DNA from: an uncultured Nitrososphaerota archaeon
Lineage (GTDB): Archaea; Thermoproteota; Nitrososphaeria; Nitrososphaerales; Gagatemarchaeaceae
Assembly (NCBI GenBank): GCA_963838925.1
Contig: CAWISW010000003.1
Location: 224,001-288,000, forward strand
Direction: 5' to 3'
DNA: 64,000 nt
Below, piece by piece: positions 4,921-17,742 of the stretch; the stretch's first letter is position 1; the number at the start of each line of letters is the position of its first letter. The position numbers and the translations under genes are program-made. Under the pieces are notes generated by a model. That model was not told where the DNA came from. It made no database searches and saw nothing but the letters and a program-made list of their open reading frames with translations.

Positions 4921-5075
4921 TGGTGGGGTCGCCCGGATTTGAACCGGGGGTCTCAAGCGTTCTCGAACGCGCCGTGTTAGGGACGTTCCCGAGGCATCTT
5001 CTCTGATGATTTGAAGCCTAGACCAGACTAGCCCCAAGTTGAATCGAGTTCAACGTTGGCCTAGCCGACGACCCC
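4921..5075 (-). tRNA. tRNA-Pro(CGG) with three introns (15/16, 29/30, 37/38)
   Basis: GGGGTCG/CGACCCC-ACCA acceptor. Removing 5060-5028, 5010-4996 and 4987-4960 gives a 79-nt cloverleaf with CAAGC-CTCGGGC-GCTTG. Confidence 0.9.
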
Positions 5076-8914: not shown

Positions 8915-9059
8915 GTTTCGAAGGTGGCGGGCGATATTCGTCTAGAAAAGCATTCTGGATAGCGGCTTGAATCTAAGGAGGGAAGACTTTCGGAATCGAA
9001 GGAACGGTTCGGGGCCAGGAAAAGGAAAGATTACATACTTACTTTGCTCCGTGGAGGTC

Positions 9060-9210
9060 GCCGGGGTAGCATAGCTTGGCCCATTGCGCCGGCTACGCCC
9101 ATGCGTGGGCGAGACTCATAATCGGCCAAGATGTGAAATCCGGAGAGGATAGAGATATCCCCGAAGGTCGCGGGCTCAAAATGCAAGCCATGAGAATCCC
9201 GCCCCCGGTA
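9060..9210 (+). tRNA. tRNA-Met(CAT), elongator type, with four introns (30/31, 37/38, 45/46, 59/60)
   Basis: GCCGGGG/CCCCGGT acceptor. Removing 9093-9113, 9121-9137, 9146-9166 and 9181-9196 gives a 76-nt cloverleaf with CCGGA-CTCATAA-TCCGG; followed by a T-run. Confidence 0.87.
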
Positions 9211-9327
9211 CTTTTTATGACCGCCCTACCGGAAGGAGGAGCATTTCTCGAAAGCGAGTGAGTCATTATGTCTACGTGAAGATTAAGGCGAATCTGCTGC
9301 GGCGCGAGGACTTGAAAGTGTGCTAGA

Positions 9328-17559: not shown

Positions 17560-17742
17560 GCCGGGGTGGCGGAGTCTGGTTAACGCGCGGGCAATTCGCT
17601 CCTCTCCGGGAGGAGTGGGCGAATCCGCATCTCGAGATCATCCGACTTGACAGCCCGTGACCTAACGGTCATGTGGGTTCAAATCGAGTGGGGAAAGGAA
17701 AACGGAGGGCTTCCTCCACTGGTGGAAATCCCACCCCCGGCG
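17560..17742 (+). tRNA. tRNA-Ser(CGA) with three introns (31/32, 37/38 or 38/39, 59/60)
   Basis: GCCGGGG/CCCCGGC-G acceptor. Removing 17593-17630, about 17637-17651 and 17684-17728 gives CGGGC-CTCGAGA-GCCCG, variable arm TGACC/GGTCA and T arm GTGGG-TTCAAAT-CCCAC. Confidence 0.9.

What the first reader, a model, noticed from the sequence alone, without database searches (positions are those of the whole stretch)
9060..9210. Elongator tRNA-Met(CAT) interrupted by FOUR BHB introns
Seen: 75 of 151 nt are intron. The introns are 30/31 (9093-9113; CGCC GG|C TACGC..GCGTG GGCG AG|A), 37/38 (9121-9137; CTCA TA|A TC..GA TGTG AA|A, one mismatch), 45/46 (9146-9166; CCGG AG|A GGATA..TATCC CCGA AG|G, one mismatch) and 59/60 (9181-9196; CTCA AA|A TG..CA TGAG AA|T). 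Splicing yields GCCGGGGTAGCATAGCTTGGCCCATTGCGCCGGACTCATAATCCGGAGGTCGCGGGCTCAAATCCCGCCCCCGGTA, a complete cloverleaf with internal exons of only 7, 8 and 14 nt. Known: to my recollection the reported maximum in archaeal tRNAs is three introns. Inference: ordered multi-step splicing by a broad-specificity EndA; standard annotation would miss the gene.
Basis: partly seen in the sequence, partly recalled or inferred. Interest (0 to 1): 0.9.

Follow-up and report, generated by a model that had tools for sequence, protein, structure and literature searches.

The report
Methionine tRNA gene with four introns
This soil archaeon's only detectable elongator-type methionine tRNA gene is cut into five pieces by four tiny protein-spliced introns, one more than the published maximum of three, and related species carry the same gene with two, three or four of them.

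Summary
Window 9060-9210 (+) holds five exons (33, 7, 8, 14, 14 nt) and four introns (21, 17, 21, 16 nt). [quoted passage not shown] Joining the exons gives a 76-nt cloverleaf that ARAGORN calls tRNA-Met(CAT). ARAGORN and the Rfam tRNA model both miss the unspliced locus.

The strongest evidence is comparative. There are 34 distinct homologous precursors from Nitrososphaerota soil and peat MAGs; one record is titled Ca. Gagatemarchaeum. Of these, 8 have four introns, 22 have three and 4 have two. Where an intron is missing, the junction is exactly the predicted one. The intron helices also covary.

The genome encodes an alpha/beta pair of splicing endonuclease (EndA) subunits like the crenarchaeal broad-specificity enzyme. 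It also encodes the RNA ligase RtcB and the tRNA-Ile2 modifying enzyme TiaS. There are two other CAT tRNAs, one initiator-like and one Ile2-like, and no second copy of this gene. It is therefore most likely the essential elongator tRNA-Met.

Splicing itself is not shown; RNA-library contigs hold only the unspliced form. Reviews from 2014 and 2021 give three introns as the maximum. A 2024 paper on intron-rich Asgard tRNAs has a supplement I could not read. Novelty is a modest extension of a known system.

The parts
9021..9037 (+). Conserved A/T-rich block about 23-39 nt upstream of the tRNA 5' end. Putative archaeal BRE/TATA promoter (inferred).
   Evidence: The block is identical or nearly so in the seven closest loci L001-L007, while sequence further upstream is unalignable. 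More distant relatives have a TTAAAT-type box at a similar distance. Function is inferred.
9060..9092 (+). Exon 1 (33 nt): acceptor 5' strand, D arm, position 26, and anticodon-stem positions 27-30.
   Evidence: It is nearly invariant in the 34 homologues.
9093..9113 (+). Intron 1 (21 nt) at 30/31, inside the anticodon stem. BHB with H 4/4 and h' 5 bp.
   Evidence: Present in 34 of 34 homologues. 4 of its 5 h' pairs show changes on both sides.
9114..9120 (+). Exon 2 (7 nt): position 31 plus anticodon-loop positions 32-37, including CAT.
   Evidence: Invariant in 34 of 34 homologues.
9121..9137 (+). Intron 2 (17 nt) at the canonical 37/38 site. Relaxed BHB (H 3/4, h' 2 bp). It also carries a 7-nt block complementary to the gene's own D loop.
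   Evidence: second H pair unpaired in 30 of 33 sequences; D-arm complementarity.
9138..9145 (+). Exon 3 (8 nt): positions 38-45.
9146..9166 (+). Intron 3 (21 nt) at 45/46 in the variable loop. BHB with H 3/4 (4/4 in L010, L028, L053, L054) and h' 5 bp.
   Evidence: Present in 10 of 34 homologues. The other 24 read straight through at the predicted junction.
9167..9180 (+). Exon 4 (14 nt): positions 46-59 (rest of the variable loop, T-stem 5' strand, T-loop positions 54-59).
9181..9196 (+). Intron 4 (16 nt) at 59/60 in the T loop. Full hBHBh' motif: h is the 5-bp T stem, H 4/4, h' 2 bp.
   Evidence: Present in 28 of 34 homologues; 6 read straight through. One H pair changes as A-U / G-U / G-C (3 / 1 / 22 sequences). 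This BHB is part of the MFE fold of the precursor.
9197..9210 (+). Exon 5 (14 nt): position 60, T-stem 3' strand, acceptor 3' strand, discriminator A73. CCA is not encoded.
9212..9216 (+). Run of five T directly after the gene. Putative archaeal oligo-T terminator (inferred).
   Evidence: T-runs also follow the gene in L002-L006.

Best explanation
Window 9060-9210 (+) is a functional tRNA gene with anticodon CAT, most likely the cell's single elongator tRNA-Met. Its transcript carries four short introns at tRNA positions 30/31, 37/38, 45/46 and 59/60.

Each intron-exon pair folds into a bulge-helix-bulge motif. All four motifs use contiguous sequence, so they can coexist in the primary transcript.

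The inferred pathway is as follows. The heterotetramer-type (alpha-beta)2 splicing endonuclease encoded in the genome cuts both 3-nt bulges of each motif. RtcB then joins the exons, including micro-exons of 7 and 8 nt, to give a 76-nt tRNA. CCA is added afterwards.

In the precursor both strands of the future anticodon stem are tied up. Positions 27-30 lie in the motif of intron 1 and positions 40-43 in the motif of intron 3. The canonical intron 2 therefore gains its full outer helix only after introns 1 and 3 are gone. Folding energies predict the order 3 and 4, then 1, then 2.

Shown here: the sequence anatomy, conservation, exact intron presence/absence, helix covariation, and the presence of the enzymes. 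Inferred: transcription, cleavage, ligation, the order, and Met (rather than Ile2) identity.
For: 1. Anatomy. The exon join is an ARAGORN tRNA-Met(cat) with 7/5/5-bp acceptor, anticodon and T stems.

2. Natural experiments. Among 34 distinct homologous precursors, 8 have four introns, 22 have three and 4 have two. Of the 22, 20 lack the 45/46 intron and 2 lack the 59/60 intron. The intron-free junctions equal the predicted splice products.

3. Structure conservation. On the 34-sequence alignment, 90.9% of 1212 pair cells are standard pairs, against 34-55% when partners are slid. 10 pairs change on both sides. 0 of 500 shuffles reach the covariation score.

4. Specificity of the signal. This is the only genome-wide parse with 4 or more excisions and perfect stems. 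The reversed-sequence control gave none.

5. Machinery.
- Two EndA paralogues are present.
- The 190-aa one matches the Aeropyrum, Sulfolobus and Pyrobaculum catalytic subunits (E 1e-41 to 8e-39). It aligns through the lysine-bearing loop and keeps the ...Y..H..K... motifs.
- The 195-aa one matches EndA folds more weakly, as a structural subunit would.
- RtcB is present.
- (alpha-beta)2 EndA with a specific loop is the type that cuts non-canonical introns and is conserved in Thaumarchaeota (PMC5829648, passages).

6. Essentiality and identity.
- TiaS is present, so a tRNA-Ile2(CAT) is needed.
- Three CAT tRNAs were found. C3:390091-390187(-) has A1:U72 and a GGG/CCC anticodon stem, so it is initiator-like.
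- C2:177503-177614(+) shares C4-G69, U12-A23 and C29-G41 with the genome's own tRNA-Ile(GAT) (E. coli Ile determinants are listed in PMC9976931).
- This locus has G4-C69, A12-U23 and G29-C41 instead.
- BLAST of the exon join against the genome finds only this locus.

7. Not an assembly artefact. The stretch is held by 20 public runs from 17 studies and by at least 10 assemblies in its four-intron form.

8. Order. The free-energy cost to force each BHB in the primary transcript is 0.5 (intron 3), 1.1 (intron 4), 4.1 (intron 1) and 10.6 kcal/mol (intron 2). The cost for intron 2 falls to 6.8 once introns 1 and 3 are removed.
Against: - There is no direct evidence of splicing or of a mature tRNA. 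The four RNA-library contigs laid on the locus all carry the unspliced form, show no joints, and may derive from DNA in the library.
- Two of the four central helices have a mismatch (introns 2 and 3).
- Intron 2's BHB is predicted to be disfavoured by about 7-11 kcal/mol against a competing helix with the D arm.
- The Met versus Ile2 call rests on exclusion and on bacterial identity rules. No isotype-specific model could be run.
- The first acceptor pair is G1-U72 in this species group (5 of 34 sequences).
- The assembly is 87% complete, so another copy elsewhere cannot be excluded.
Confidence: 0.8

Rival explanations
1. The gene is real and has four introns, but it encodes tRNA-Ile2 (CAU, agmatidine-modified, reading AUA). 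The GGGCCC-type CAT tRNA at C2:177503-177614 would then be the elongator tRNA-Met.
For: Both tRNAs have anticodon CAT, A37 and A73. No archaeal isotype model could be run. The identity of the C2 tRNA to tRNA-Ile(GAT), 76%, is tied with its identity to Lys, Val and Arg tRNAs. PMC8450103 notes that Met/Ile2 confusion occurs even with dedicated models (one archaeal case; passage).
Against: The C2 tRNA, not this one, shares C4-G69, U12-A23 and C29-G41 with the genome's tRNA-Ile(GAT). My recollection, not checked here, is that archaeal elongator tRNA-Met starts GCC... and tRNA-Ile2 starts GGG..., which points the same way.
Confidence: 0.12
2. Only three insertions are introns. The 21-nt insertion at 45/46 is kept in the mature tRNA as a long extra arm.
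For: The insertion lies in the variable region, where class II tRNAs carry a stem-loop. Its inner part is a clean 5-bp hairpin. Its central helix has a mismatch in this species.
Against: - All 10 homologues that have the insertion keep a 4-nt block complementary to positions 40-43. The block is flanked by two 3-nt bulges, which is exact BHB geometry and which an extra arm would not need (three H pairs are 10/10 paired, the fourth 4/10).
- Its length varies from 14 to 21 nt.
- 24 of 34 homologues, including species of the same genus, lack it with no other change.
- This BHB is the easiest of the four to form in the precursor (0.5 kcal/mol).
Confidence: 0.05
3. The locus is a decaying or silent tRNA pseudogene, or an insertion-riddled relic. 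The working tRNA-Met lies in the unassembled 13% of the genome.
For: Assembly completeness is 87%. There is no proof of expression. One related MAG carries a 78-nt deleted form without an anticodon arm (L020/L050).
Against: - Exons are almost invariant across 34 distinct sequences and several genera, while flanks are unalignable.
- Changes fall in hairpin loops or are compensatory.
- The upstream A/T block and the T-run are conserved.
- In the 41 genomes searched, no relative showed a hit over most of the query that lacked the 30/31 and 37/38 introns. This includes one single-contig genome of the same genus with the three-intron form.
Confidence: 0.03

Closest known systems
Multiple-intron tRNA genes of Thermoproteales (Sugahara et al. 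2008, cited in PMC4033280 and PMC8450103; I read passages of the two citing papers only)
   Same: Short BHB or relaxed-BHB introns occur at canonical and non-canonical positions of one tRNA gene. Removal is attributed to an (alpha-beta)2 EndA with a specific loop. Many genes in the genome are affected.
   Different: Those papers state a maximum of three introns per gene; this gene has four, with internal exons of 7 and 8 nt. The host is a soil/peat Nitrososphaerota lineage, not a hyperthermophilic crenarchaeon.
[quoted passage not shown]
   Same: Introns lie in different arms plus 37/38. RT-PCR showed the outer introns are removed before the canonical one, and order tracks BHB stability. My energy model predicts the same pattern here.
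   Different: It is eukaryotic and has three introns. Its processing is shown experimentally, whereas here it is only modelled.
Intron-rich tRNA sets of soil Asgard archaea (Atabeyarchaeia/Freyarchaeia, PMC11291895, passages read)
   Same: These are soil archaea in which most tRNA genes have introns, often non-canonical and multiple, and partly missed by tRNAscan-SE.
   Different: It is a different phylum. The main text gives 228 introns in three genomes but no per-gene maximum.
Non-canonical tRNA introns of Thaumarchaeota (tRNAscan-SE 2.0 clade-specific BHB model, PMC8450103)
   Same: Same phylum and the same kind of short non-canonical BHB intron.
   Different: That work reports counts (107 non-canonical introns in the genomes analysed) and an archaeal maximum of three per gene. 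The family studied here was not discussed. The family's genomics paper (PMC10640624) has no occurrence of the word 'intron'.
Split and tri-split tRNAs (Nanoarchaeum, Caldivirga; named in PMC4033280)
   Same: tRNA body fragmented into several short pieces that are joined through BHB-like motifs.
   Different: Those pieces are transcribed from separate loci and joined in trans. Here all five pieces are collinear in one 151-nt gene.

Membership tests
Archaeal protein-spliced (BHB/EndA) tRNA intron | Two 3-nt bulges on opposite strands, separated by a 4-bp helix, with the cuts after the second bulge base. | tested here: met
   All four introns have this geometry. H is 4/4 for introns 1 and 4 and 3/4 for introns 2 and 3, i.e. 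relaxed forms.
Archaeal protein-spliced (BHB/EndA) tRNA intron | Excision restores a canonical cloverleaf. | tested here: met
   The exon join is a 76-nt ARAGORN tRNA-Met(cat) with 7/5/5-bp stems.
Archaeal protein-spliced (BHB/EndA) tRNA intron | Intron boundaries confirmed by intron-less alleles or orthologues. | tested here: met
   Met for introns 3 and 4: 24 and 6 of the 34 homologues respectively read through at the predicted junction. Not testable for introns 1 and 2, which are present in 34 of 34.
Archaeal protein-spliced (BHB/EndA) tRNA intron | The host encodes an EndA able to cut non-canonical or relaxed motifs, plus an RNA ligase. | tested here: met
   Alpha and beta EndA paralogues are present. 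Alpha matches the crenarchaeal catalytic subunits through the loop region. RtcB is present. Enzyme activity is not tested.
Archaeal protein-spliced (BHB/EndA) tRNA intron | Spliced product and excised intron observed in RNA. | tested here: inconclusive
   Contigs of four RNA libraries carry only the unspliced form and show no joints. Contigs cannot show absence.
Elongator tRNA-Met | Anticodon CAT with A37, and lacking the initiator marks (A1:U72, three G:C pairs at 29-31/39-41). | tested here: met
   The gene has G1-U72 and positions 29-31 are G, G, A. A separate gene carries the initiator marks. The marks themselves are recalled knowledge; A1:U72 is also mentioned in PMC8450103.
Elongator tRNA-Met | Distinguishable from tRNA-Ile2(CAT). 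| tested here: inconclusive
   The other non-initiator CAT tRNA shares three Ile-type base pairs with tRNA-Ile(GAT) and this one shares none. These rules come from E. coli. Archaeal isotype models were not available.
Published class 'multiple-intron-containing archaeal tRNA' | Two or three introns per gene (stated maximum three). | tested here: not met
   This gene has four introns. The maximum of three is stated in PMC4033280 and PMC8450103. It works like the class but exceeds its stated range.

The most novel reading that the evidence does not exclude
This is the first documented tRNA gene with four protein-spliced introns, and it is conserved in at least 10 species-level assemblies of an abundant soil archaeal family. 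In addition, its canonical intron is not passive. A covarying 7-11 bp helix between intron 2 and the tRNA's own D arm would hold the canonical BHB closed until the other introns are removed. That would be an intron-encoded device that sets the order of splicing, or chaperones the folding of a body made of 7-14-nt pieces.
Probability: 0.25. Interest if true: 0.7.

Novelty: new variant of a known kind. Interest (0 to 1): 0.55.

Why it matters
- It pushes the known limit of tRNA gene fragmentation in cis from three to four introns, with 7- and 8-nt exons. That sets a harder test for how EndA and RtcB find, cut and rejoin very short pieces without losing them.
- It shows that Thermoproteales-like intron loads exist in a mesophilic soil and peat lineage. 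I counted at least 47 introns in 40 tRNA genes.
- Routine tRNA finders miss this gene. ARAGORN and the Rfam model leave this genome without any recognisable tRNA-Met, so completeness or 'missing tRNA' statements for such MAGs are unreliable.
- Sister species differ by the exact presence or absence of single introns. This gives a natural series for studying intron gain and loss and splicing order.

Tried and rejected
RNA evidence. The look-up of sequencing runs listed 6 RNA runs that hold part of the stretch. I laid four of them, X15-X18. Each gave one short contig (155-217 nt) covering about 9048-9216 with all four introns present, and there were no joints. Three of the four run on into unlike flanks, so they come from related strains. 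Contigs show neither transcription nor absence of the spliced form, so this counts neither for nor against splicing.

Standard detectors. ARAGORN and Rfam RF00005 find nothing at the locus. The only Rfam match in the 351-nt scan is a chance CRISPR-DR28 hit on the intron-1 hairpin (17.8 bits against a cut-off of 35, E 1.3). I rejected it.

Other CAT candidates.
- My finder gave a CAT parse at C3:798375-798519 with imperfect stems (6/5/4) and an untypical T loop. I rejected it as one of 9 low-quality parses, a rate similar to the reversed-sequence control.
- A loosened run parsed C3:418578-418714 as CAT with two introns. Inspection shows an ordinary tRNA-Trp(CCA) with one 63-nt canonical intron, as ARAGORN reports. 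I rejected the CAT parse.
- Loosened parses of C3:213260 (forced into class I) and of C2:177503 (a different first intron) are also not trusted. For C2:177503 I use my manual reading.

Literature.
- Nine full-text searches were run. The ones aimed at a tRNA with four protein-spliced introns, and the broader archaeal tRNA-intron searches, found no paper describing one. The only 'four introns' hit in a tRNA paper counts introns in T loops across genes.
- Archaeal TiaS/MetRS discrimination rules could not be found in held papers, and PMC4615378 is not held.
- Supplements are closed. Supplementary Data 4 of PMC11291895 and Table S7 of PMC8450103 may bear on the 'first four-intron' claim.

tRNAscan-SE and isotype-specific models were not available.

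Rows dropped before counts. From the 34-sequence set I left out L020/L050 (78-nt deleted form), L023 (cut by a contig end) and exact duplicates. L053 was mis-parsed by the finder as two introns and was counted by eye as three.

Full report
WHAT IS THERE

Taking out 9093-9113, 9121-9137, 9146-9166 and 9181-9196 (21, 17, 21, 16 nt; 75 nt in all) leaves exons of 33, 7, 8, 14 and 14 nt. ARAGORN calls their join a 76-nt tRNA-Met(cat).

The join has a 7-bp acceptor stem (first pair G-U), a D stem of 3 bp plus a U-U at 13-22, a 5-bp anticodon stem, a 5-nt variable loop and a 5-bp T stem. In standard numbering the introns lie at 30/31, 37/38, 45/46 and 59/60.

Each intron lies in a bulge-helix-bulge motif: a 4-bp central helix H flanked by 3-nt bulges on opposite strands, with the cut after the second bulge base. 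H is perfect for introns 1 and 4 and has one mismatch for introns 2 and 3. The inner helix h' is 5, 2, 5 and 2 bp. For intron 4 the outer helix is the T stem itself.

An A/T-rich block at 9021-9037 and a run of five T at 9212-9216 flank the gene. Both are conserved in the closest relatives. I read them as promoter and terminator, by inference.

IS IT MORE THAN CHANCE?

BHB-like motifs alone are common. With my thresholds there is about one candidate per 7 nt. I therefore wrote a finder that walks the DNA, may jump over up to five BHB candidates, and demands:
- T8, A14, GG in the D loop and T33;
- a TC.A T loop and G53-C61;
- paired stems.

Over the whole 1.84-Mb assembly, both strands, it returned 40 loci. 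Of these, 31 look like tRNAs and 9 are poor parses with imperfect stems. The present locus is the only one with four or more jumps and perfect 7/5/5 stems.

On reversed (not complemented) contig C3, both strands, 1.64 Mb, it returned 15 parses at 6 places. None had perfect stems.

COMPARATIVE EVIDENCE

A DNA search of 40 relatives found the locus in 18 of them at E below 1e-17. An exact-pattern scan of the species-representative genome collection gave 36 more stretches. All were from MAGs titled Nitrososphaerota, Thaumarchaeota, Nitrososphaerales, Nitrosopumilales or simply 'uncultured archaeon'. One was Candidatus Gagatemarchaeum stordalenia (taxonomy).

That record's precursor is identical to those of three genomes of the window's own genus. 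The window therefore probably belongs to that genus or a close one (inference).

After removing duplicates, one truncated copy and one deleted form, 34 distinct precursors remain:
- 8 have four introns;
- 20 have introns 1, 2 and 4;
- 2 have introns 1, 2 and 3;
- 4 have introns 1 and 2 only.

Where intron 3 or intron 4 is absent, the sequence runs straight across the predicted junction. This fixes those boundaries to within the 1-nt slide that repeated bases allow.

Four-intron forms occur in G000, seven other genomes of the same genus (L002-L007, L010) and two further MAGs (L028, L054). Nine other genomes of the same genus have the three-intron form. The 45/46 intron has therefore been gained or lost between closely related species.

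On the 34-sequence alignment I tested a structure made of the acceptor stem, part of the D stem, the T stem and the four BHB motifs:
- 90.9% of 1212 cells are standard pairs, against 34-55% when partners are slid by 1-3 columns.
- 10 pairs change on both sides.
- 0 of 500 column shuffles reach the observed covariation score.

The clearest cases are the inner helix of intron 1, where 4 of 5 pairs show double changes, and the H pair formed by position 57 and intron 4. That pair is A-U in 3 sequences, G-U in 1 and G-C in 22. The sequences are related, so these counts are not independent events.

MACHINERY AND MECHANISM

The genome has two EndA paralogues.
- The 190-aa protein matches the catalytic subunits of the crenarchaeal heterotetramers (3p1z_B, 2cv8_A, 3ajv_B, 2zyz_B; E 1e-41 to 8e-39). 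It aligns through the N-terminal ...YYG.PL...KP... loop and the catalytic region.
- The 195-aa protein matches EndA folds more weakly and has no histidine at the catalytic position in the aligned block. This is what is expected of the structural subunit (my reading of the alignment).

[quoted passage not shown] RtcB is present.

I therefore infer the usual archaeal pathway: EndA cuts the eight bulge sites and RtcB joins the five exons.

All four motifs use sequence that is contiguous in the primary transcript, so they can coexist. That all-BHB structure evaluates to -42.9 kcal/mol, against an MFE of -60.9. The anticodon stem cannot form at that stage. Its 5' strand sits in the helix and bulge of intron 1, and its 3' strand is the H helix of intron 3.

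Forcing each motif in the ensemble costs 0.5 kcal/mol (intron 3), 1.1 (intron 4), 4.1 (intron 1) and 10.6 (intron 2) in the primary transcript. The cost for intron 2 drops to 6.8 once introns 1 and 3 are out, and removing intron 2 first makes intron 1 harder.

The predicted order, outer introns first and the canonical one last, matches what was shown by RT-PCR for the three-intron tRNA-Ile of C. merolae (PMC3728597, passage). Here it is only a model at 37 C without proteins.

WHICH tRNA IS IT?

TiaS is encoded, so the cell should have three CAT tRNAs. I found three.
- C3:390091-390187(-) has one intron and carries A1:U72 and a GGG/CCC anticodon stem. I read it as the initiator (the marks are recalled, and A1:U72 is also in PMC8450103).
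- C2:177503-177614(+) has two introns. It has a GGGCCCG acceptor and shares C4-G69, U12-A23 and C29-G41 with the genome's tRNA-Ile(GAT). These are the positions listed as minor Ile determinants for E. coli in PMC9976931.
- The present gene has G4-C69, A12-U23 and G29-C41.

By exclusion it is the elongator tRNA-Met. I put about 0.8 on that and about 0.12 on the swap.

BLAST of the exon join against the assembly hits only this locus. The assembly is 87% complete.

CONTEXT IN THE GENOME

I combined the finder, the T-arm/acceptor scan and manual parsing. This gives 40 tRNA genes with at least 47 introns, and 28 genes have at least one.

Three-intron genes are Tyr(GTA), Phe(GAA), Lys(CTT), Pro(CGG) and Ser(CGA). 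The last two lie in this window. Apart from the tRNA-Met, I have not checked these by comparison with relatives.

For scale, PMC8450103 gives 0.84 introns per gene for Thermoproteales and 71 introns in 46 genes for the richest genome.

AN UNEXPLAINED EXTRA

Intron 2 carries a block complementary to the D loop of the same tRNA. Its 3' part, which is also the H strand of its own BHB, can pair with the D-stem 5' strand.
- The duplex energy is -16.7 kcal/mol here (z -3.6; 1 of 300 shuffles as low).
- It is -12.0 to -19.2 in all 19 distinct D-arm/intron-2 combinations, always below the shuffle mean.
- Matched partners average -14.6 and swapped partners -12.0.
- Two registers exist, CTTGGCC/GGCCAAG and AGCTTGG/CCAAGCT.
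- Within the 22 sequences of one register, the 7-bp helix is 99.3% paired and one pair covaries (U-A 17, C-G 4, U-G 1). Slid controls are 2-42% paired.

This would explain why the second H pair of intron 2 is unpaired in 30 of 33 sequences. No other non-adjacent intron of this genome shows it. The MFE fold of the precursor uses this helix, and it competes with the BHB of intron 2. The function is unknown. A role in ordering splicing or in folding is speculation.

NOVELTY

The full-text searches aimed at a four-intron tRNA, the broader archaeal tRNA-intron searches and the search for this archaeal family found no report of one. The genomics paper on the family has no occurrence of the word 'intron'.

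There is a caveat. PMC11291895 (2024) reports Asgard genomes in which over half of the tRNA genes have multiple introns. It gives per-gene detail only in a supplement that I could not open. Subscription-only papers are also not searched.

The mechanism is the known one. What is new is the number of introns, the tiny exons, the lineage, and possibly the intron/D-arm helix.

VERDICT

This is a real, conserved, almost certainly functional four-intron tRNA gene, most likely the elongator tRNA-Met. Splicing is inferred, not shown. It is a quantitative extension of a known system, of moderate interest.

Noticed in passing
window 9069-9081 with 9124-9135: Intron 2 is complementary to the D arm of its own tRNA: 7 bp plus 4 bp, -16.7 kcal/mol, z -3.6. 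The complementarity is conserved in all 19 distinct D-arm/intron-2 combinations among the 34 homologues, in two registers, with one covarying pair. It competes with the BHB of intron 2. Function unknown.
   Followed up: partly
window 17560-17742 (+) = G000:C3:241560-241742: A 183-nt tRNA-Ser(CGA) gene with three introns of 38, 15 and 45 nt, at about 31/32, 38/39 and 59/60. Rfam and ARAGORN miss it. I parsed it by hand and with the loosened finder. It was not checked against relatives.
   Followed up: partly
window 4924-5075 (-) = G000:C3:228924-229075: tRNA-Pro(CGG) with three introns (33, 15, 28 nt) and perfect stems. A near-identical tRNA-Pro(TGG) at C3:415545-415664 has two introns. ARAGORN mislabels the first as tRNA-Val with one intron.
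   Followed up: no
whole genome G000: I counted at least 47 introns in 40 recognisable tRNA genes, 28 of which have at least one intron. Only 25 genes reach the Rfam tRNA cut-off. tRNA counts for MAGs of this family from standard tools will therefore be too low.
   Followed up: partly
G000:C2:177503-177614 (+): An Ile2-like tRNA(CAT) with introns in the D loop (22 nt) and at 37/38 (15 nt). Its T loop reads TCCGAAT, i.e. C where the near-universal U55 stands.
   Followed up: no
L020 and L050 (same sequence; record titled isolate Th24), about 78 nt: A deleted form of the same tRNA-Met gene. It runs from inside intron 1 directly into the T loop and intron 4, so it lacks the anticodon arm. The sister MAG (L032, isolate Th22) has the intact three-intron gene. 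It could be a pseudogene, an assembly error or a split gene.
   Followed up: no
G000:C3:418578-418714 (-): tRNA-Trp(CCA) with a 63-nt canonical intron that contains TGATGA-type motifs. This recalls the box C/D guide RNA in archaeal tRNA-Trp introns (recalled, not tested).
   Followed up: no
alignment A1, T loop of all 34 homologues: Position 54 is C in every sequence (T loop CTC[AG]AAT) instead of the usual U54, and it forms the first pair of the H helix of intron 4.
   Followed up: no
window 9000-9260 in public runs: The stretch is held by 20 listed runs from 17 studies, labelled soil, peat, permafrost and rhizosphere metagenomes. This fits an acid-soil/peat lineage. Only four RNA runs were laid.
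   Followed up: partly
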